Shown piece after piece: positions 3,569-35,746 of a DNA stretch of 64,000 nucleotides. The translations under genes were made by a program, and so were the position numbers. Where the stretch lies: NCBI GenBank assembly GCA_963558185.1, contig CAUWFE010000002.1:24460-88459 (forward strand), given 5' to 3'. How positions within the stretch are numbered: the first letter of the stretch is position 1; every line of letters begins with the position of its first letter. A model generated the notes under the pieces. The model was not told the origin of the DNA. It saw only the letters and a program-made list of their open reading frames with translations, and searched no databases. Origin of the DNA: an uncultured Clostridia bacterium. GTDB taxonomy: Bacteria > Bacillota > Clostridia > TANB77 > CAG-508.

Positions 3569-3805
3569 TTGAGAATAGATAAATTTTTAAAAGTATCAAG
3601 AGTAATAAAAAGAAGAACAATTGCAAACGAAGCAGCAGATGGAGGCAGAGTAATTGTAAATGGAAAAGTAGTTAAACCAAGCTATGAAGTAAAAGTGGGA
3701 GATATAGTAGAAATAAAATTTGGGGATAAAATTTCAAAATTTGAAATTATACAAATACCAAAATTACAAAATCAAAATCAAGAAGAACTAATAAAAATAT
3801 TGTAA
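3569..3805 (+). CDS. rqcP: S4-domain RNA-binding protein (YabO/RqcP, Hsp15-like)
   Basis: LRIDKFLKVSRVIKRRTIANEAADGGRVIVNGKVVKPS closely matches my recollection of the B. subtilis YabO N-terminus. I place the start at TTG 3569, with RBS AAGGAAG at 3557-3563. The track start at 3494 lies inside addA. Confidence 0.85.
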   Translation: MRIDKFLKVSRVIKRRTIANEAADGGRVIVNGKVVKPSYEVKVGDIVEIKFGDKISKFEIIQIPKLQNQNQEELIKIL

Positions 3806-3849
3806 ATGTAATAAAAATGTAATAAAAATGTAATACAATTGTTAAACTA
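3806..3849. repeat. Tandem 11-bp phased repeat ATGTAATAAAA (two perfect copies, then ATGTAATACAA and TTGTTAAACTA)
   Basis: Read directly. Units are 3806-3816, 3817-3827, 3828-3838 and 3839-3849, and the array starts right after the rqcP stop codon. A sister array lies at 33942-33985. Confidence 0.8.
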
Positions 3850-3914: not shown

Positions 3915-4748
3915 ATGAATGGGGAAAATAAAATGATAGAAAATTTAGAAAAGTGTGAAAATAATAGTTTAGAAAAAAAGAATATATTTGAAGAAAGATT
4001 ATCAAAATTAAAAAATATACAAGAAGCAATAGAGTTAGATGATGACGTAAAAGAAGCAGTAAAAAAACAAGAAGTAGATGAGAATTACATCAAATATATT
4101 AGAAACTCTATTGAAGATAAATTATTTTGCAATATAAATTTTGATAAAATAAGTACAAAAGTATTAATTGAGAAATTATGCCCAGAGATAATAAAAAGAC
4201 TGCAAGATGTGCAAAATATTAACCTAGATCAATTAAATATAGAGAATGTAGGAGAACATTTTGAAAATCAAATTCATTACTTAGACAAAATTTGTGTATA
4301 TGGAAATAGTTTTGTTTGTTTATTTGGTATTAATGATCAAAATTTAGATGATGCAATCGTATATGAAAAAAGAAAATTTTCTAGAGAAGATAGAATAGAA
4401 GCAGTTCAGTCAAAATATGAAATAGGCAAAAAAATAGAATTAGAACAATATGATGAATATTATTTAGGAATTGAACCAGATAGAATAAAAGTATTTTCAG
4501 AAAGAAAAATGTTAGCATTAGCTCCTATTGAAGAAACACCATTTGATAAGATAAAAAATAGATTATCTAAAATTTTTAATTTAAATATGTTCACACATAA
4601 AAAGAAAATATTGCCACATTTAGATTTAGTATATGATACAAATCCGAATCGTTGGAAGAACTTTGAAAGTAATAGTAAAACAGATGCAAAAATTAGAATG
4701 AAATTTTTACTTGCTAAAGAAAGAGAACAAGTAAAAAATGAACTTTAA
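3915..4748 (+). CDS. hypothetical protein (277 aa, no recognisable domain)
   Basis: Long ORF with AGGAG upstream (3896-3900). ATG 3933 is an alternative start. I recognise no motifs. Confidence 0.55.
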   Translation: MNGENKMIENLEKCENNSLEKKNIFEERLSKLKNIQEAIELDDDVKEAVKKQEVDENYIKYIRNSIEDKLFCNINFDKISTKVLIEKLCPEIIKRLQDVQNINLDQLNIENVGEHFENQIHYLDKICVYGNSFVCLFGINDQNLDDAIVYEKRKFSREDRIEAVQSKYEIGKKIELEQYDEYYLGIEPDRIKVFSERKMLALAPIEETPFDKIKNRLSKIFNLNMFTHKKKILPHLDLVYDTNPNRWKNFESNSKTDAKIRMKFLLAKEREQVKNEL

Positions 4749-7170: not shown

Positions 7171-8121
7171 ATGGAAAAAGAAAATGATAATGTTATTTTA
7201 GTAAATAAAGAATCAGATGTAGAAAAATATGAAACAGAAAAAATAAAAAATTTAATTTATACAATTAGAGGAAAACAAGTAATGTTAGATAATGATGTAG
7301 CTATGTTATATCATTATCCAACTAAACGTATAAATGAAGCAGTAAGAAGAAACATCGAGAGATTTCCTGAAAATTTTTGCTTTAAATTAACTGAAATTGA
7401 AGTAGTAAACTTGAGGTCGCAATTTGCGACCTCAAGTTTAGAAAAAGAAAATTATGGAGGTAGAAGATATTTGCCATATGTTTTTACAGAACAAGGCATC
7501 GCTATGCTTTCAGGTTTGTTAAAGAATGATATTGCAATTCAAGTAAGTATAAATATAATGAATGCTTTTGTTGAAATGAGGAGATTTATAGCAACCAATG
7601 GGCAAGTATTTGAAAGACTAACTAGCATAGAATATAGGGTGTTGGAACAAAATAAAAGGTTAACAGAACATGAAAAGAAGTTTGAAAAAGTTTTTGATGA
7701 ACTTCAAAAAAATGAAAAAATAGAATTAAAACAAAGCATATTCTTTGATGGACAAATCTATGATGCATATAGTTTAATTATAGATATTATAAAGAAAGCA
7801 AAACAAAAAATTTTAATCATAGACAATTACATAGATGATAGTATTTTGAAAATGTTATCAAAGAAAAATAAAGATGTAGAAGTCGTAATTTTGACATCGC
7901 AAAATAGTAATCTGAATAAATTAGACATCAATAAATTTAATAAACAATATCCAATTTTAAAAGTGGCAACAACAAATAAATTTCATGATAGATTTATCGT
8001 GATAGATAATAAAGAATTATATCATATAGGAGCTTCTTTAAAAGATTTGGGAAAGAAGTGCTTTGCAATTTCAAAAATTGAAGACGAAGAATATATAGAG
8101 AAAATAAGCAATTATAGTTGA
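7171..8121 (+). CDS. ORF6N/KilA-N-type DNA-binding protein with a PLD-like C-terminal domain
   Basis: IRGKQVMLDNDVAMLY...NIERFPENFCFKLT...GGRRYLPYVFTEQGIAMLSGLL is the ORF6N signature. The C-terminus has HDRFIVIDNKELYHIGASLKD, which resembles HxK-x4-D...GS with K replaced by R. I place the start at ATG 7171 with RBS AAGGAAAG. Confidence 0.75.
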   Translation: MEKENDNVILVNKESDVEKYETEKIKNLIYTIRGKQVMLDNDVAMLYHYPTKRINEAVRRNIERFPENFCFKLTEIEVVNLRSQFATSSLEKENYGGRRYLPYVFTEQGIAMLSGLLKNDIAIQVSINIMNAFVEMRRFIATNGQVFERLTSIEYRVLEQNKRLTEHEKKFEKVFDELQKNEKIELKQSIFFDGQIYDAYSLIIDIIKKAKQKILIIDNYIDDSILKMLSKKNKDVEVVILTSQNSNLNKLDINKFNKQYPILKVATTNKFHDRFIVIDNKELYHIGASLKDLGKKCFAISKIEDEEYIEKISNYS

Positions 8122-30272: not shown

Positions 30273-31460
30273 ATGAATACAAAATTAAGAAATAAAAAAA
30301 TAATTTTTTTGTTAATTTGTATTATGATTATTGGTATATGTATAGGAATAACAAAAAACATCAATATAATTCAAATAATAGATGTAATAAAAGAGAAATT
30401 TGTAGGTCCCCCAATTAATGAAAATAATGAGATTAATAATTCCTTTTTTGGAATAGCAGATGATTTTACTAAACCTAGAGAAACATTGAAAGGGATAAAT
30501 GAAGCTATAAAATATGCATCTAAAGATAATATAAATTATATAAAATTAAAAAAGGGAAAATATTTAATTGATGGAACTAATAACACAAATTTATCAAAAG
30601 GTATTGAAATTGAGGTTTCAAATATTACCATAGACTTAAATGGCTCTACGATAAAATATATAGAAAATAACAAACCAGTGTATAATGTTATAAAATTATT
30701 AAATGTCGAAAACGTTAATATTTGTAATGGAGTTATAATAGGTGATAAAGATAAACATGATTATGGCACGATACAATCATCACATGGATTTGGATGTGGA
30801 ATATCTATAAATGCTTGCAAGAATATAAAAATAGAAAACATGGAAATTTACAATATGACAGGTGATGGAATATATATAGGAGACCTATTTAATAAAAAAA
30901 ATGGTACATATGATAACAGTATGGATTGTAGTATAGTTAATAATAATATAAATAATTGTAGAAGATTAGGAATAGCAGTAACTGGAGGAACTAACATAAA
31001 AATAGAAAAAAATGAGATTTATAATATAGATGGAGTATGGCCAAAGGCCGGTATTTGTATAGAAGCAAATGAAAATGAAATAATAGATAAAATAACTATA
31101 AAAGATAATAAAATTTATACCACAGCATCTAATGATTCTATAATTGCAAGTAAAAATACCCAAAATGTACTTATAATAGAAAACGAACTTAATGGAGGAA
31201 TACTGGGATTAGATGTAAAATGTAAAATAAAAATTATTAACAACAAAATAAAAAGTGGAGATTTAGAATTTAAAATAAGTGAAGAGCTTAAAAAAAGCGG
31301 ATTTTATGTAAAAGAAGTATTGATACAGAAAAACAATGTACAAAATGGAAAGGTGATATTAAAAGATATTGAAAGAGGAGAGGTGTTAGAAAATACATTT
31401 ATCAATTGTGAATTTGACTTAGAAGAAGGAAAAGTCATTTTTAATGATAATGATATGTAA
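30273..31460 (+). CDS. Membrane-anchored right-handed parallel beta-helix protein (pectate-lyase-fold; putative polysaccharide hydrolase, lyase or epimerase)
   Basis: N-terminal TM helix. INEAIKYASKDNINYIKLKKGKYLI resembles a Pectate_lyase_3 N-terminal cap. Repeated I-x-N-N-x-I beta-helix coils follow. Confidence 0.6.
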   Translation: MNTKLRNKKIIFLLICIMIIGICIGITKNINIIQIIDVIKEKFVGPPINENNEINNSFFGIADDFTKPRETLKGINEAIKYASKDNINYIKLKKGKYLIDGTNNTNLSKGIEIEVSNITIDLNGSTIKYIENNKPVYNVIKLLNVENVNICNGVIIGDKDKHDYGTIQSSHGFGCGISINACKNIKIENMEIYNMTGDGIYIGDLFNKKNGTYDNSMDCSIVNNNINNCRRLGIAVTGGTNIKIEKNEIYNIDGVWPKAGICIEANENEIIDKITIKDNKIYTTASNDSIIASKNTQNVLIIENELNGGILGLDVKCKIKIINNKIKSGDLEFKISEELKKSGFYVKEVLIQKNNVQNGKVILKDIERGEVLENTFINCEFDLEEGKVIFNDNDM

Positions 31461-32126: not shown

Positions 32127-32294
32127 ATATTAAAGTCTTAAAATTTTAAGAATAATTTTGAACAATTCTGTTACATTTATTGACTTTTGCATACATACAA
32201 TATATGATAATATAAAATAAAACCTAAGAGAACAAGGCTAAAAAATAAAAATTTTTTAACCAAAATTATGCATTGAGAAAGGAAACAAGTAAAT

Positions 32295-33938
32295 ATGAAA
32301 AATATTTTAAAAATAGCAGTTATATTAATACTATTTTTTATCACATTTACAACTGTATCAAATGCATCAGAAGAACAAATAGATGTTACATCAAACTTTA
32401 AAGATGAAAATTTGAGACAAGCAATTTTAGAAATAGTAAGGGAAGTTACAAAGGATCCAAATAAAACAAATATAACTATAGGTGATATAAATAAAATAAC
32501 ATCAGATAACTTACCAAGTGGAAAGCAATTACACTTAGCAGGAAAAGGAATAAAAAGTTTAGAAGGTCTTGAACTATTTTCTGGAAAGAACATTGAATGG
32601 ATATATTTAGACTGGAATGAAATTGCAGATATATCAATACTTTCAAGGTTTACTTCATTAACAAAAATAAGTATGAGTAGTAATAAAATAACAGATATCA
32701 CACCACTTGCAAAACTAACAAATTTAGTGAACTTAAATATAAGCAATAATCAAATAAGTTCATTAGAACCAATTAAAAATTTAACAAATATACAATACAT
32801 ATATGCAGATAACAATAAAATAACAGAAATAACAGCACTTAGTAAATTAACTAATGCAAAAGAAATTTCAGTTTCAGGAAATCAAATTACAAATATAGAT
32901 TTGCTAACTAAACTTCCTAATTTATATGGATTAGATGCAAGTAGAAATAATATAGCTAATATAGAAAATTTTCAAATAAATACACATATTACAAATATGA
33001 ATTTAAATTATAATAATTTAAGTACATTACAAGGAATACAAAATATTAAAAATTTACAAATATTTAGTGCAAGTAATAATAAAATAGTTGATATTACACC
33101 AATTACAGACTTAAGAGAATTATATAATTTAAATTTAAATGCAAATAAAATTACAGACATAACTAAAATTAATAAAATGAAGCAATTAGAATATCTATAT
33201 TTAGATGCAAATAATATAATTTATGTACAAGCAATAGATGAGCTACCAAACTTAAAAAAAGTAACATTATATAATCAAACATATGAATTTATTATAAAAG
33301 AGCAATATAACCAAGAAGATTTACAAATAAATTTAACGGATTATTTTATAAAATTAAAAGAAACAGGGCATAAACTGTATGAACAAAATGCAAAAGTAGA
33401 AATACAAAATTCAACAGGATATACATTAGCTCAAGACTGGTCGTACATTATTATTAAACAAAGTGATTTACAAAACAAACCAATCATAATGAAAATATAT
33501 GATAATGAAAATTCATATATTACATTTACAATAAAACAAGAAATTCCACAACAAGAGTTAGCAAGCACAATATATACCATAGAAAATAAATATGTAAAAA
33601 ATGTACCAGCAAAAACAACTAAAGAAGTATTTAACCAAAATGTAAATATACCAGTAGAAATACTTCGAAATGATAAAGCATTGCAAAATACACAAATAGT
33701 AGCAACTAAAGATGTAGTTAAACTAAACTCAAAATCATATATAATCATTGTAGATGGAGATATTACAAAAGATGGATTAGTTAATATTTTTGATATAATG
33801 AAAATTAAACGAAAAGTAATAGGACTAGTAGAATTAGATGTGGATACAAATATGGCAGCAGATATAACAAAAGATGGAAATGTGAACATTATGGATGTCA
33901 TGAAAATGCTAAGAATGGTAAGTAATGAAACAAACTAA
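32295..33938 (+). CDS. Secreted leucine-rich-repeat (internalin-like) protein with a C-terminal dockerin module
   Basis: Signal peptide (MKNILKIAVILILFFITFTTVSNA). About a dozen 22-aa LRRs (LTNLVNLNISNNQISSLEPIKN). Two dockerin-type Ca-binding segments, DITKDGLVNIFDIMKIKRKV and DITKDGNVNIMDVMKMLRMV. Confidence 0.8.
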   Translation: MKNILKIAVILILFFITFTTVSNASEEQIDVTSNFKDENLRQAILEIVREVTKDPNKTNITIGDINKITSDNLPSGKQLHLAGKGIKSLEGLELFSGKNIEWIYLDWNEIADISILSRFTSLTKISMSSNKITDITPLAKLTNLVNLNISNNQISSLEPIKNLTNIQYIYADNNKITEITALSKLTNAKEISVSGNQITNIDLLTKLPNLYGLDASRNNIANIENFQINTHITNMNLNYNNLSTLQGIQNIKNLQIFSASNNKIVDITPITDLRELYNLNLNANKITDITKINKMKQLEYLYLDANNIIYVQAIDELPNLKKVTLYNQTYEFIIKEQYNQEDLQINLTDYFIKLKETGHKLYEQNAKVEIQNSTGYTLAQDWSYIIIKQSDLQNKPIIMKIYDNENSYITFTIKQEIPQQELASTIYTIENKYVKNVPAKTTKEVFNQNVNIPVEILRNDKALQNTQIVATKDVVKLNSKSYIIIVDGDITKDGLVNIFDIMKIKRKVIGLVELDVDTNMAADITKDGNVNIMDVMKMLRMVSNETN

Positions 33939-33941
33939 AAA

Positions 33942-33985
33942 ATGTAACAAAATTGCAACAAACTTGTAACAAAAATGTAAATTAA
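33942..33985. repeat. Tandem 11-bp phased repeat (ATGTAACAAAA / TTGCAACAAAC / TTGTAACAAAA / ATGTAAATTAA)
   Basis: Read directly. The array starts 4 nt after the LRR-dockerin stop codon and has the same motif and period as 3806-3849. Confidence 0.75.
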
Positions 33986-34075
33986 AAAAGATTGTATAAA
34001 AAACATTAATATGATATCATAAACAAAAATATGATAATTAAATAAGAAAGGAGAATATCCATTACTGGATATAAA

Positions 34076-34876
34076 TTGAATATGCAAAAGAATGTAAAAA
34101 TTATAGTAAGTATTTTAATAACAATAACAATTTTTTTAATATCAACAACTGTTCAAGCGGAAGAAATATACAAGGTAGATATGGGCTTAGTTGCTGAAAA
34201 TATGACAATAGATTTAGATAAACAAAAAGAAGTAGCTATATATTTGAAGTTAACAGATTTTAATTTGCCAGATAAAATTTTAGGTTATGAAGCAGTTTTA
34301 AATTACGATACAAATGTATTTTCAAAAGTAACAGTAACAGGATTAAATGACTGGATAGGAATAAGTAGCAATAATGATATATATACAGAATCAACAAAAA
34401 AATTAGTATCAACAACTTCAAATGCAACTATTAATACAAATGTAGCAAAACTAGTATTTACAATAAGTGAAACAGCAAAAGCACAAGATACAACAATAAC
34501 ATTGAATAAATTATTGATAGCAGCAGGAAATGAAGAAAGTACACAGGTAGAAGAAAAAACAAAAAGTATAACATTACACTTAGAAAAAAAACAACAAGAA
34601 CCAGCACCAGATGAAGGTGAAAATAATAAACCAAATAACGAGCAAAAACCAGACAATAAAAATGAAGTAACAAATGCTCAAAAAAATGAAGTAGCAAATG
34701 AAACTGTAAATCAAGATAGAGCTAATATAACAGTTACTACTCCTACTGATGATACACAAGCAAATGGGAAAATTCCACAAACAGGAGCTAATATGCAAGT
34801 ATTAGGTGCTATAGTAATAATTGCTATTTTAGGAATTATAATCTATATTAGATATCGTTCAATAGAAATAAAATAG
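34076..34876 (+). CDS. Cell-wall-anchored cohesin-domain protein (sortase substrate)
   Basis: Signal peptide. A cohesin-like module (GYEAVLNYDTNVFSKVTVTG...VAKLVFTISE). A P/E/N/K-rich linker. C-terminal IPQTG followed by a hydrophobic helix and a basic tail (an LPXTG-type sorting signal). The start is TTG 34076 or ATG 34082. Confidence 0.75.
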   Translation: MNMQKNVKIIVSILITITIFLISTTVQAEEIYKVDMGLVAENMTIDLDKQKEVAIYLKLTDFNLPDKILGYEAVLNYDTNVFSKVTVTGLNDWIGISSNNDIYTESTKKLVSTTSNATINTNVAKLVFTISETAKAQDTTITLNKLLIAAGNEESTQVEEKTKSITLHLEKKQQEPAPDEGENNKPNNEQKPDNKNEVTNAQKNEVANETVNQDRANITVTTPTDDTQANGKIPQTGANMQVLGAIVIIAILGIIIYIRYRSIEIK

Positions 34877-34884
34877 TTAATATT

Positions 34885-34914
34885 GGGCAATGTTAAAAGC
34901 ATTGCTCTTTTTTA
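34885..34914 (+). terminator. Intrinsic terminator after the cohesin gene
   Basis: Stem GGGCAATG/CATTGCTC followed by TTTTTTATT. Confidence 0.75.
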
Positions 34915-34936: not shown

Positions 34937-34966
34937 TTGAAAAATATACCTGAAATTGGGTATAAT
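34937..34966 (+). promoter_or_regulatory. Sigma-A type promoter for the wzz / BY-kinase / phosphatase operon
   Basis: TTGAAA (34937-34942), an 18-nt spacer, then TATAAT (34961-34966). Confidence 0.6.
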
Positions 34967-35005
34967 ATAACATATGAAAAAATAGGGAAGGAAGATATAA
35001 AAAAC

Positions 35006-35746
35006 ATGGAAGATTTTGATTTAAAAGAATTATTTAGTATTTTTTGGAATAGAAAAAATTACATATTATTGATAGTTGCAATTTCAATGGTAGTAGGAAT
35101 TATTTATTCTTACTTTTTTGTAAAGCCAAAATATAAGTCTCAAACATCATTATTATTAGCACAGTCAAATATTAATGCTCAAGAGCAAGAAGGTATAGTA
35201 GGAGATGTAGGTGGAATTACAACAAATGATGTAACATTGAACCAAAAATTAGTTCCAACATATAGTGTACTTTTAAAAAGTGATAGTATAATTAACGAAG
35301 TTGTAGATAACTTAAATATAGATGTATCAGCTGAACAACTAAAAAACAGTATTACAGTTAGTGCAGTTAAAGATACACAATTAATAAATATAACCGTAAC
35401 AGCTGAAGCTCCAAGAAATGCAAAAGTAATAGCAGATGAAATTTCAAAGGTATTTATTGAAAAAATAGCACATGATATTTACAAAATGGATAATGTTACT
35501 ATAATAGATTCAGCAAAAGAAGATTCAAATCCATATAATATAAATCATACAAAAGATATAATAATGTTTACAGCTATAGGTATTGTAATTGCAATTGTAT
35601 ATGTTCTAATTGCAAATATGTTGGATACTACAGTAAAATCACAAGAAGATATAGAAAAAAAATTAGGACTTTCTGTTATTTCAAGTATTCCATTATATAA
35701 TTTTAATGCAAGTATGAAACCTGTTTCAAAAGGAGGAAGAAGATAA
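35006..35746 (+). CDS. Chain-length determinant / BY-kinase transmembrane modulator (Wzz, CpsC/YveK-type)
   Basis: Two TM helices flank an extracellular domain, with the Wzz N-terminal pattern (LKELFSIFWNRKNYILLIV). I place the start at ATG 35006 (RBS GGAAGGAAG). The track TTG start lies inside the promoter. Confidence 0.8.
   Translation: MEDFDLKELFSIFWNRKNYILLIVAISMVVGIIYSYFFVKPKYKSQTSLLLAQSNINAQEQEGIVGDVGGITTNDVTLNQKLVPTYSVLLKSDSIINEVVDNLNIDVSAEQLKNSITVSAVKDTQLINITVTAEAPRNAKVIADEISKVFIEKIAHDIYKMDNVTIIDSAKEDSNPYNINHTKDIIMFTAIGIVIAIVYVLIANMLDTTVKSQEDIEKKLGLSVISSIPLYNFNASMKPVSKGGRR

What the first reader, a model, noticed from the sequence alone, without database searches (positions are those of the whole stretch)
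32295..34876. Minimal cohesin-dockerin pair embedded in a capsule locus: a dockerin-tagged LRR adhesin next to a sortase-anchored cohesin protein
- The 547-aa secreted protein is built from internalin-type 22-residue LRRs and ends in a duplicated dockerin calcium-binding segment (DITKDGLVNIFD... and DITKDGNVNIMD...).
- The next gene encodes a signal peptide, one cohesin-like module, a P/E/N/K-rich stalk and an IPQTG sorting signal.
- Together they form a self-contained two-gene display system. It would non-covalently hang an LRR binding module on the cell wall, with no glycoside hydrolases involved.
- The pair is inserted between the glycosyltransferase block and the Wzz/BY-kinase/phosphatase block of the polysaccharide locus, and it has its own promoter and terminator.
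- Non-cellulosomal cohesin-dockerin pairs are known from genome surveys, but few have been characterised.
Basis: partly seen in the sequence, partly recalled or inferred. Interest (0 to 1): 0.6.

Follow-up and report, generated by a model that had tools for sequence, protein, structure and literature searches.

The report
Dockerin-tagged internalin with its own cohesin anchor
An uncultured human-gut Clostridia bacterium encodes an internalin-like binding protein ending in a dockerin "plug", followed by a wall-anchored cohesin "socket"; this two-gene unit keeps one fixed place in the capsule locus across related species, but it is a new variant of a known display principle.

Summary
ORF 32295-33938 is a secreted internalin-type protein: cap, 12 LRRs of 22 residues, an Ig-like domain, a small beta module and a type I dockerin. 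ORF 34076-34876 has a signal peptide, one cohesin, a disordered stalk and an IPQTG sorting signal. Both modules pass Pfam cut-offs. AlphaFold models match solved cohesins and InlA.

Tools added four points.
- The genome (1.52 Mb) has four dockerin genes, each followed directly by a cohesin-anchor gene. The six cohesins are at most 37% identical. Across the genus, 47 of 151 dockerins have a cohesin within 1 kb downstream (about 0.2 expected).
- The LRR-dockerin/cohesin unit holds the same slot, between the variable sugar-transferase block and wzz/BY-kinase/cpsB, in at least 9 of 25 genus genomes and in metagenome relatives down to 34% identity. Species without it have an empty slot.
- A terminator follows the cohesin gene in 8 of 8 orthologous loci.
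- The LRR concave face is as conserved as its core, which implies one conserved ligand.

Binding, ligand and expression are untested. Sortase-anchored single cohesins (ScaE), LRR-dockerin proteins and non-cellulosomal pairs are already known. This is a new variant of a known kind, of moderate interest.

The parts
32180..32208 (+). Promoter-like site TTGACT-17-TATGAT in the 168-nt gap upstream of the LRR-dockerin gene
   Evidence: (10 of 12 matches). This is a consensus match only; such sites are not enriched over shuffles in this region.
32295..33938 (+). Gene for the 547-aa secreted internalin-like LRR protein with a C-terminal dockerin
   Evidence: AF2 model mean pLDDT 93. Foldseek: InlA 8h62 E 3e-20, InlF 4fmz TM 0.71-0.78.
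32295..32366 (+). Signal peptide (residues 1-24, ...TVSNA/SEEQ)
   Evidence: Read directly from the sequence. N-terminal helix with low pLDDT at residues 17-24 in the model.
32376..33272 (+). Helical cap (residues 28-75) and 12 LRRs of 22 residues (residues 76-326)
   Evidence: Beta strands at 78, 102, 124 ... 322. Repeat register. Concave-face entropy 0.69, core 0.77, convex 2.00, p = 3e-15.
33276..33539 (+). Beta-sandwich after the LRR (residues 328-415), in the position of the internalin inter-repeat Ig-like domain
   Evidence: strands 328-415, pLDDT about 94. The InlA alignment spans about 490 columns.
33567..33755 (+). Small beta module (residues 425-487) directly before the dockerin; all four dockerin proteins of this genome share it
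   Evidence: (alignment of the last 150 residues). It is also kept when the payload is replaced.
33756..33932 (+). Type I dockerin (residues 488-546): two repeats with loops DITKDGLVNIFD and DITKDGNVNIMD, three helices
   Evidence: PF00404 at 26.2 and 31.6 bits against a cut-off of 22.9. 2ccl_B E 1e-6, 1ohz_B E 3e-6. Helices 498-508, 516-522 and 532-546.
33942..33985 (+). Phased 11-bp TGTAACAAAA-like array in the 137-nt spacer, ahead of weak promoter-like sites before the cohesin gene
   Evidence: sites at 34006-34038. Not conserved in orthologs, whose spacers are 12-130 nt.
34076..34876 (+). Gene for the 266-aa cohesin anchor protein
   Evidence: The start may be ATG 34082, as in database cluster P0001.
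34175..34585 (+). Cohesin module (residues 34-170)
   Evidence: PF00963 at 26.6 bits against 24.1. AF2 all-beta module, mostly pLDDT 77-93. Foldseek 2vo8, 6kgf, 3ul4, 2jh2. Family profile hits NagJ cohesin 2jh2 at E 0.01.
34586..34771 (+). Disordered P/E/N/K/Q-rich stalk (residues 171-232); its length varies about twofold among orthologs
   Evidence: pLDDT 24-34. Alignment gaps.
34772..34873 (+). Cell-wall sorting signal: IPQTG (residues 233-237), hydrophobic helix, RYRSIEIK tail
   Evidence: Invariant in orthologs. IPQTG is the commonest motif in the family, 33 of 139. Six sortase genes in the genome. TIGR01167 scores 15.6 bits against 15.9.
34885..34907 (+). Intrinsic terminator closing the two-gene unit
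   Evidence: 10-bp stem, 4 GC pairs, T-run. A hairpin plus T-run lies after the cohesin stop in 8 of 8 orthologous loci, with different sequences.
34937..34966 (+). Near-consensus promoter-like site TTGAAA-18-TATAAT ahead of the probable true wzz start (ATG 35006)
   Evidence: (11 of 12). Wzz homologs align only from residue 24 of the long ORF.

Best explanation
This is a two-gene operon for non-covalent surface display. Shown by sequence and models: the downstream protein has a signal peptide, a cohesin module, a disordered stalk of about 60 residues and an IPQTG/hydrophobic/charged sorting signal. The upstream protein has a signal peptide, an internalin-type domain (cap, 12 LRRs, Ig-like domain), a small beta module and a type I dockerin with two near-identical repeats. 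Inferred: a sortase links the cohesin protein to peptidoglycan, and the stalk carries the cohesin outward through the wall and polysaccharide layer. The secreted LRR protein folds its dockerin around calcium and plugs into the neighbouring, cognate cohesin, possibly in either of two orientations because the two repeats are alike. The LRR concave face is strongly conserved across the family, so it should bind one conserved ligand, which is unknown. The unit is an optional but positionally fixed accessory of a Wzy-type capsule/exopolysaccharide locus, transcribed separately from wzz-kinase-phosphatase. The bacterium uses the same layout (dockerin cargo gene, then its own cohesin anchor gene) for three other cargos.
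For: Module identity. Folds: cohesin; internalin domain plus three-helix dockerin. Anchor: IPQTG, helix and tail are invariant; the family-wide motifs are LPXTG-like; there are six sortases. Pairing: all 4 dockerin genes of the genome are followed directly by a cohesin gene. In the genus, 47 of 151 dockerins have a cohesin within 1 kb downstream on the same strand, against about 0.2 expected. The six cohesins are at most 37% identical and the four dockerins differ at the helix positions that set specificity in solved complexes. The dockerin-cohesin unit persists when the payload is swapped (G022 and G056: a ~905-aa non-LRR payload with a homologous pre-dockerin module and dockerin, plus an IPQTG cohesin, in the same slot). 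Operon: spacer 12-137 nt with no terminator inside, and a terminator after the cohesin in 8 of 8 loci. Locus link: the same slot is used in G002, G005, G007, G012, G044, G055 and in metagenome contigs down to 34% identity, while the upstream sugar genes differ. Conserved ligand face.
Against: The window's own Pfam scores are only 2-3 bits above the cut-offs. Both calcium loops carry Thr at loop position 3, where Asn or Asp is usual; orthologs have Thr, Ser or Asn. The cohesin alone finds no solved structure by sequence, and the family profile reaches only E 0.01. Adjacency and co-inheritance do not prove that the neighbours bind each other. The genome also has two orphan cohesin anchors (C26 and C31:3858-4958) that could be alternative partners. 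In one distant relative (L055) the cohesin carries an in-frame TAG. In R. flavefaciens most LRR-borne dockerins bound none of the tested cohesins (PMC5301203).
Confidence: 0.65

Rival explanations
1. The modules are real, but pairing is not one-to-one. The LRR dockerin docks on another cohesin (for example an orphan sortase-anchored cohesin on contig C26 or C31), or all dockerins share a promiscuous pool of anchors. Gene adjacency would then reflect only co-inheritance.
For: Two cohesin anchors have no dockerin gene beside them, and some family members in relatives also lack an upstream dockerin gene. In R. flavefaciens one ScaE cohesin serves many dockerins (PMC5301203).
Against: The cohesins are extremely divergent: this one is at most 24% identical to the other five. 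The dockerins differ at recognition positions. Adjacency is far above chance. The dockerin-cohesin unit is kept together through a payload swap.
Confidence: 0.15
2. The pair belongs functionally to the capsule. The LRR protein binds a conserved element of the polysaccharide or its assembly machinery, such as a linkage unit or the Wzz ectodomain, and organises, tethers or measures the capsule. It would not be an adhesin for an external ligand.
For: The slot is fixed at the junction of the variable and constant blocks of the locus over deep divergence. The concave face is conserved and rich in Trp, Tyr, Asp, Asn and Ser. There is a weak Pfam match to the EndoS LRR.
Against: The pair is absent from about two thirds of genus genomes that have the same wzz-kinase-cpsB block; those simply have an empty slot, so it is not needed for polysaccharide synthesis. 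It has its own terminator, separate from wzz. In G022 and G056 an unrelated payload occupies the slot. LRR domains of the internalin type usually bind proteins (established knowledge of InlA and InlB).
Confidence: 0.2
3. The dockerin-like and cohesin-like modules no longer interact. The C-terminal repeats are a degenerate EF-hand pair and the beta-sandwich is only a spacer domain of an ordinary LPXTG surface protein.
For: Marginal Pfam scores for the window's own copies, Thr at loop position 3, and a low-confidence loop at residues 92-98 in the cohesin model.
Against: Both repeats and both loops are conserved in 41 family members (D489, D493, G494, D500, D523, D527, D534 invariant or nearly so). 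The dockerin models with pLDDT above 90. Orthologous cohesins score 35-37 bits. The pair is co-conserved in 9 of 9 genus genomes that carry either gene.
Confidence: 0.07

Closest known systems
ScaE anchoring scaffoldin of Ruminococcus flavefaciens (single cohesin, LPXTG, sortase-anchored) with directly docking group-4 dockerin proteins (PMC5301203, PMC2930009)
   Same: A single cohesin on a stalk with an LPXTG-type signal. Non-enzymatic dockerin proteins, LRR proteins among them, exist in the same organism. Symmetric dockerins suggest a dual binding mode.
   Different: ScaE serves a whole cellulosome and many dockerins from one sca gene cluster. Here each cargo gene has its own divergent cohesin gene next to it, no cellulases carry dockerins, and the pair lies in a capsule locus. 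The fold is closest to type I and C. perfringens cohesins, not to R. flavefaciens type III.
Non-cellulosomal cohesins and dockerins of Clostridium perfringens glycoside hydrolases (NagJ/GH84C cohesin 2jh2, 2ozn, 2o4e; GH33 cohesin 2vo8)
   Same: These are the best structural match (2vo8, E 4.5e-7, TM 0.76) and the best sequence-profile match (2jh2, E 0.01). They are non-cellulosomal, from a low-GC Clostridium.
   Different: In C. perfringens the modules sit inside large secreted enzymes and join enzymes to one another (my recollection of the literature; not checked here). Here the cohesin is a small dedicated wall anchor and the cargo is a non-enzymatic LRR protein.
Listeria internalins (InlA, InlF, InlB)
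   Same: An N-terminal cap, 22-residue LRRs and an Ig-like inter-repeat domain (Foldseek E 3e-20 to InlA, TM 0.71-0.78 to InlF; phmmer E 1e-55).
   Different: It is not an ortholog (NCBIfam internalin_A scores 128 bits against a cut-off of 1600). Internalins are anchored by their own LPXTG or GW modules, or are secreted. Here the LPXTG anchor sits on a separate cohesin protein and attachment is through a dockerin.
LRR-dockerin proteins of R. flavefaciens FD-1
   Same: SIGN-LRR-Doc architecture; 28 LRR modules occur among dockerin-containing proteins (PMC2930009).
   Different: Most of those dockerins bound no tested cohesin (PMC5301203). Here a candidate partner is encoded next door.
Ruminococcus bromii amylosome, with sortase-anchored scaffoldin Sca2 (PMC4611034)
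   Same: Cohesin-dockerin assembly used outside cellulose degradation in a human-gut Firmicute. The abstract appeared; Sca2 and its anchoring are from my recollection.
   Different: The amylosome organises amylases. Here there are no enzymes and the partners are gene-adjacent cognate pairs.

Membership tests
Dockerin type I (Pfam PF00404) | Profile match above the curated cut-off | tested here: met
   26.2 bits (protein scan) and 31.6 bits (genome scan) against 22.9. Solved type I dockerins 2ccl_B at E 1e-6 and 1ohz_B at E 3e-6.
Dockerin type I (Pfam PF00404) | Two duplicated segments of about 22 residues, each with a 12-residue EF-hand-like calcium loop (Asp/Asn at loop positions 1, 3, 5, 9, 12) followed by a helix | tested here: inconclusive
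   Both loops read D-I-T-K-D-G-x-V-N-I-x-D. Positions 1, 5, 9 and 12 are canonical, but position 3 is Thr in both repeats (Thr, Ser or Asn in orthologs). The three-helix fold models with pLDDT above 90. Calcium binding was not tested.
Dockerin type I (Pfam PF00404) | Calcium-dependent high-affinity binding to a cohesin | not testable with these tools
   No multimer prediction was available. A read-through fusion was impossible because the two genes are in different frames.
Cohesin (Pfam PF00963) | Profile match above the curated cut-off | tested here: met
   26.6 and 29.1 bits against 24.1. Orthologs score 35-37 bits.
Cohesin (Pfam PF00963) | Nine-stranded beta-sandwich (jelly-roll) of about 140 residues | tested here: met
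   AF2 all-beta module at residues 34-170. 22 of the 23 best Foldseek PDB hits are cohesins; the best is 2vo8 at TM 0.76, rmsd 3.2 A.
Cohesin (Pfam PF00963) | Binds a dockerin on its 8-3-6-5 sheet | not testable with these tools
   The only support is genetic: adjacency and co-conservation.
Sortase-anchored (LPXTG) surface proteins | C-terminal LPXTG-like motif, hydrophobic segment and positively charged tail, with sortase genes in the genome | tested here: met
   IPQTG, a 22-residue hydrophobic helix and RYRSIEIK, invariant in orthologs. Six sortase genes. The TIGR01167 anchor model scores 15.6 against 15.9, just below cut-off. IPQTG is the commonest motif in the cohesin-anchor family.
Class 1 internalins (NCBIfam NF033189 InlA, NF033188 InlH) | Cap, 22-residue LRRs and inter-repeat Ig-like domain | tested here: met
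Class 1 internalins (NCBIfam NF033189 InlA, NF033188 InlH) | Score above the family cut-off (orthology) and an LPXTG anchor on the same chain | tested here: not met
   128.5 bits against 1600, and 97 against 1050. The C-terminus is a dockerin, not LPXTG. It works like an internalin domain but is not a member of those families.
Cellulosome or amylosome | Dockerins borne by carbohydrate-active enzymes, and a scaffoldin with several cohesins | tested here: not met
   There are only 4 dockerin proteins. Their payloads are LRR; SH3 repeats with an unassigned N-terminal domain; SH3, Big_2 repeats and an unassigned N-terminal domain; and NPCBM with F5/8 type C. No cellulase or amylase domain was found. 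All six cohesin proteins carry one cohesin.
ScaE-type anchoring scaffoldin | A single cohesin with a sortase signal that receives dockerins at the cell surface | tested here: inconclusive
   The architecture is met. The receiving function is untested. The sequence and fold are nearer to C. perfringens and type I cohesins than to R. flavefaciens type III cohesins.

The most novel reading that the evidence does not exclude
The cassette may be a capsule-locus accessory of a kind not described so far. A wall-anchored cohesin post, whose variable-length stalk is matched to the thickness of the polysaccharide layer, would hold an internalin-like receptor at or within the capsule. The receptor's invariant, aromatic and acidic concave face would recognise a conserved capsule or assembly component, or a conserved host molecule. 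This would link cohesin-dockerin docking to capsule organisation. More broadly, one private cohesin per dockerin cargo would be a general, orthogonal surface-addressing system in small-genome gut Clostridia, where cohesins make up most of the sortase substrates.
Probability: 0.12. Interest if true: 0.75.

Novelty: new variant of a known kind. Interest (0 to 1): 0.45.

Why it matters
It gives a concrete, testable partner for an LRR-borne dockerin. In R. flavefaciens, dockerins of this class mostly failed to find a cohesin. It also shows an internalin-type binding domain attached in a fourth way: docked on a separate sortase-anchored socket, rather than by its own LPXTG, by GW modules, or released. 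In this genus cohesin-dockerin pairs look like private, gene-adjacent plug-and-socket sets, and they account for 4 of about 7 sortase substrates in a 1.5-Mb genome. If the pairs are orthogonal, they would be a natural set of non-cross-reacting surface-display tags. The fixed position beside wzz, and the conserved ligand face, point to a surface function coordinated with the capsule in abundant but uncultured human-gut bacteria.

Tried and rejected
- The cohesin alone against PDB sequences found no hit at E <= 1. A family profile and the fold search were needed.
- I considered a single-chain read-through fusion of dockerin and cohesin to mimic a complex in AF2. The two genes are in different frames here and in the orthologous loci that the tool would accept. 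Only an unrelated pair (L050) is in one frame, and it would have had no alignment, so I did not run it.
- The promoter scan was not informative: 29 sites found against 34 expected.
- The scan's own index had no look-alike stretches.
- Peer et al. 2009 on non-cellulosomal cohesins is not held in the library. It is cited only through the reference list of PMC2930009.
- I rejected a recent insertion or mobile island. GC content is flat across the locus, and the slot is conserved down to 34% identity.
- I rejected pseudogene decay of the downstream cohesins in L054 and L055 as the main reading. The frameshifts fall at CGG and read through to full anchors under the lineage's CGG +1 rule. One TAG in L055 remains unexplained.
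- I did not attempt a mirror-tree test of dockerin-cohesin coevolution, because adjacent genes share their history whether or not they bind.
Full report
OBSERVATION. The window is very AT-rich (about 24% GC across the locus, with no compositional break at the pair). It comes from a 1.52-Mb, 53-contig, 100%-complete genome. The closest named relatives are uncultured Clostridia MAGs from human-gut metagenomes (record titles). ORFs 32295-33938 (547 aa) and 34076-34876 (266 aa) are present as described. The first hits LRR_4 (E 2e-30) and Dockerin_1 (26.2 bits against a cut-off of 22.9). The second hits Cohesin (26.6 bits against 24.1). The genome-wide scan gives 31.6 and 29.1 bits for the same places. 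Upstream lie a CapD-like dehydratase, the priming transferase, GT1/GT2 transferases, an EpsG-type polymerase, a flippase, acyltransferases and a beta-helix protein. Downstream lie Wzz, a BY-kinase, the CpsB phosphatase and a phosphoglucomutase-family gene. The pair therefore lies inside a Wzy-type polysaccharide locus.

THE COHESIN PROTEIN. Orthologs (44-52% identical) keep the signal peptide, the module, IPQTG, the hydrophobic helix and the RYRSIEIK tail unchanged, while the P/E/N/K/Q-rich stalk varies about twofold in length. The AlphaFold2 model has an all-beta module at residues 34-170 (mostly pLDDT 77-93), a disordered stalk at 175-236 and a C-terminal helix. In the Foldseek PDB search, 22 of the 23 best matches are cohesins. 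The best is the non-cellulosomal cohesin of C. perfringens GH33 (2vo8, E 4.5e-7, TM 0.76), followed by C. acetobutylicum CohA2, C. thermocellum OlpA and C. perfringens NagJ. The protein alone finds nothing in the PDB by sequence. A 50-member family profile finds the NagJ cohesin first, at E 0.01. An exhaustive phmmer search of 1.84 billion representatives finds 385 clusters (81 at E <= 1e-10). Nearly all are 230-300 aa and align end to end. Their C-terminal motifs are IPQTG (33), LPQTG (19), LPKTG (16), LPKAG (15) and similar. So this is a sizeable, unnamed family of short single-cohesin, sortase-type anchors.

THE LRR-DOCKERIN PROTEIN. A 41-sequence alignment gave a confident model (mean pLDDT 93, pTM 0.75). 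It shows a signal peptide, a helical cap, twelve strands spaced 22 residues apart (78 to 322), a beta-sandwich (328-415), a small beta module (428-486) and three dockerin helices. Foldseek matches the whole internalin domain of InlA (E 3e-20, about 490 columns) and InlF (TM 0.71-0.78). phmmer gives InlA at E 1e-55. NCBIfam internalin models are far below cut-off (128 bits against 1600), so it works like an internalin domain but is not an InlA ortholog. The last 60 residues align with the Xyn10B type I dockerin of the classic 1ohz and 2ccl complexes (E 1e-6). The Ser-Thr pair of Xyn10B is Ile-Phe in repeat 1 and Ile-Met in repeat 2. Both calcium loops read DITKDGxVNIxD, with Thr at loop position 3; orthologs have Thr, Ser or Asn there. 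Across family members only 35-63% identical, the concave-face positions of the LRR are as conserved as the hydrophobic core (mean entropy 0.69 against 0.77). The convex face is free to vary (2.00; Mann-Whitney p = 3e-15). The concave face is rich in Trp, Tyr, Asp, Asn and Ser. This argues for one conserved ligand and against an arms-race surface.

A REPEATED LAYOUT. The genome has four dockerin proteins, and each is followed directly by a cohesin-bearing gene.
- Contig C13: a 734-aa protein with SH3 repeats, then a cohesin-SH3-cadherin-like protein with a C-terminal membrane helix.
- Contig C21: a 1279-aa protein with NPCBM and F5/8 type C domains, then a cohesin with LPQTG.
- Contig C31: a 745-aa protein with SH3 and Big_2 domains, then a cohesin-cadherin-like protein with a membrane helix. 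A further LPKTG cohesin and a sortase lie just upstream.
- Contig C2: the pair studied here.
A sixth cohesin, on contig C26, ends in LQNTG. The six cohesins are at most 37% identical, and the one studied here is at most 24% identical to the rest. The four dockerins differ at the helix positions that carry specificity in solved complexes. All four cargos share the ~60-residue beta module before the dockerin. Only about seven ORFs in the genome carry an LPXTG-like signal, and four of them are cohesins. There are six sortase genes. All 42 genomes of the genus have dockerins. Of the 151 dockerins listed, 47 (in 27 genomes) have a cohesin module within 1 kb downstream on the same strand, against about 0.2 expected by chance. 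This is a lower bound, because both lists were truncated and Pfam misses divergent cohesins.

THE CAPSULE-LOCUS SLOT. In G012, G005, G002, G007 and in metagenome contigs, the order LRR-dockerin, cohesin, Wzz, kinase, CpsB is kept while the sugar-transferase genes upstream differ. Against G012, identities to the window are about 62% (LRR protein), 46% (cohesin), 66% (Wzz), 84% (kinase), 70% (CpsB) and 90% (PGM), so the cohesin evolves fastest. Four more distant family members (34-45% identical) sit in exactly the same slot, each with a cohesin-family gene downstream. Within the genus, 25 of 42 genomes have the kinase ortholog. Seven carry the LRR-dockerin ortholog, and two (G022, G056) carry a ~905-aa non-LRR payload with a homologous pre-dockerin module, a dockerin and an IPQTG cohesin in the same place. 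In G043, G047 and G004 the slot is empty and enzymes abut wzz. The cassette is therefore optional for polysaccharide synthesis but old and positionally fixed. The dockerin-cohesin unit also survives exchange of the payload, which is the best genetic hint that the two modules work together.

TRANSCRIPTION SIGNALS. A 10-bp stem with a T-run lies 9 nt after the cohesin stop. All eight orthologous loci examined have a strong hairpin followed by T's at the same place, with unrelated sequences. No terminator separates the two genes, and the spacer is 12-137 nt. A TTGACT-17-TATGAT site lies in the gap upstream of the LRR gene, and TTGAAA-18-TATAAT precedes the probable true wzz start. Promoter-like sites are not enriched in this DNA, so those are only plausible.

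MECHANISM AND RIVALS. The best-supported reading has four steps: Sec export of both proteins, sortase linkage of the cohesin protein at IPQTG, calcium-dependent docking of the LRR protein on the neighbouring cohesin, and presentation of a conserved LRR binding face beyond the wall. Only the module identities, folds, sorting signal, gene pairing and conservation are shown. Binding, specificity, anchoring and the ligand are inferred. The rivals are promiscuous or non-neighbour pairing (two orphan anchors exist), a role inside capsule assembly rather than adhesion, and loss of interaction. The evidence for each is in the Rival explanations section.

COMPARISON WITH WHAT IS KNOWN. Sortase-anchored single cohesins (ScaE), dockerins on LRR and other non-enzymatic proteins, and non-cellulosomal cohesin-dockerin modules are all described (PMC2930009, PMC5301203, PMC4611034). 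In R. flavefaciens, most dockerins from LRR proteins bound none of the tested cohesins. The pair here offers a specific candidate partner for a dockerin of that class. The searched library holds no natural internalin-type protein with a dockerin and no cohesin-dockerin pair tied to a capsule locus. Earlier notes of this scan report many similar non-cellulosomal sets in uncultured low-GC gut Clostridia, so the general principle is not rare. I rate this a new variant of a known kind, of moderate interest.

SIDE OBSERVATIONS. Orthologs of both genes in other genomes contain +1 frame changes exactly at CGG. Read as one Gly, these restore the LRR repeat (G012, G005) and the nearly invariant LGY motif of the cohesin (L054). 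This fits earlier notes on the lineage. The window's two genes have no in-frame CGG.

Noticed in passing
L030 ~8104-8112 (G012), L031 ~8060-8068 (G005), L054 8093-8096, L055 cohesin stalk: Orthologs of the LRR-dockerin gene (G012, G005) and of the downstream cohesin (L054, L055) change frame by +1 exactly at CGG. Reading CGGN as one Gly restores ...LTQLT-G-LQEVSLAGNQI... and the nearly invariant cohesin motif PL-G-YTGTIEYD, and gives full-length anchors (LPNTG, LPAAG). One in-frame TAG remains in the L055 cohesin.
   Followed up: partly
window 33942-33985 and 3804-3840: Two phased 11-bp arrays of TGTAA(C/T)AAAA-like units. Each begins a few bases after a stop codon and lies ahead of a promoter-like site. 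One is in the dockerin-cohesin spacer; the other is between a small S4-like ORF and the gene at 3915. The array is not conserved in orthologous spacers (12-130 nt). It may be bent DNA or a regulator site for an internal cohesin promoter.
   Followed up: partly
window 34046-34084: The start of the cohesin gene is ambiguous. TTG 34076 and ATG 34082 lie 22-28 nt after the only good Shine-Dalgarno (GGAGA, 34050-34054). An in-frame ATT at 34061 has ideal 6-nt spacing (34055-34060).
   Followed up: no
window 34937-35006: The long wzz ORF (TTG 34937) probably starts at ATG 35006. Homologs align only from residue 24, and a near-consensus promoter-like site (34937-34966) lies inside the extension.
   Followed up: no
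G000 contigs C2, C21, C26, C31 (L012-L014): Only about 7 ORFs in this 1.5-Mb genome carry an LPXTG-like sorting signal, and 4 of them are single-cohesin proteins. There are six sortase genes. On C31, a cohesin (LPKTG), a sortase, a dockerin-bearing SH3/Big_2 protein and a membrane-anchored cohesin-cadherin-like protein form one cluster.
   Followed up: partly
G008:C19, G053:C18, G022:C13, G054:C49, G052:C19, G009:C1, G003:C14, G006:C16, G013:C6: The genus has a family of ~1260-1300-aa proteins that carry an internal cohesin and, in at least five of the nine, a C-terminal dockerin (adaptor-like). Each is followed by a short cohesin anchor gene, which suggests two-tier assemblies in some species.
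   Followed up: no
window 30273-31460: A membrane-anchored right-handed beta-helix protein in the variable block recurs in the polysaccharide loci of several relatives at 38-51% identity (L027, L031, L033; a beta-helix gene is also present in L053 and L054).
   Followed up: no
cohesin residues 91-98 (window 34346-34369): Asn91 and Trp93 (motif GLNDW) are nearly invariant or invariant across 50 family members, yet they lie in the only low-confidence loop of the cohesin model (pLDDT below 50 at residues 92-98). This loop may become ordered on dockerin binding.
   Followed up: no
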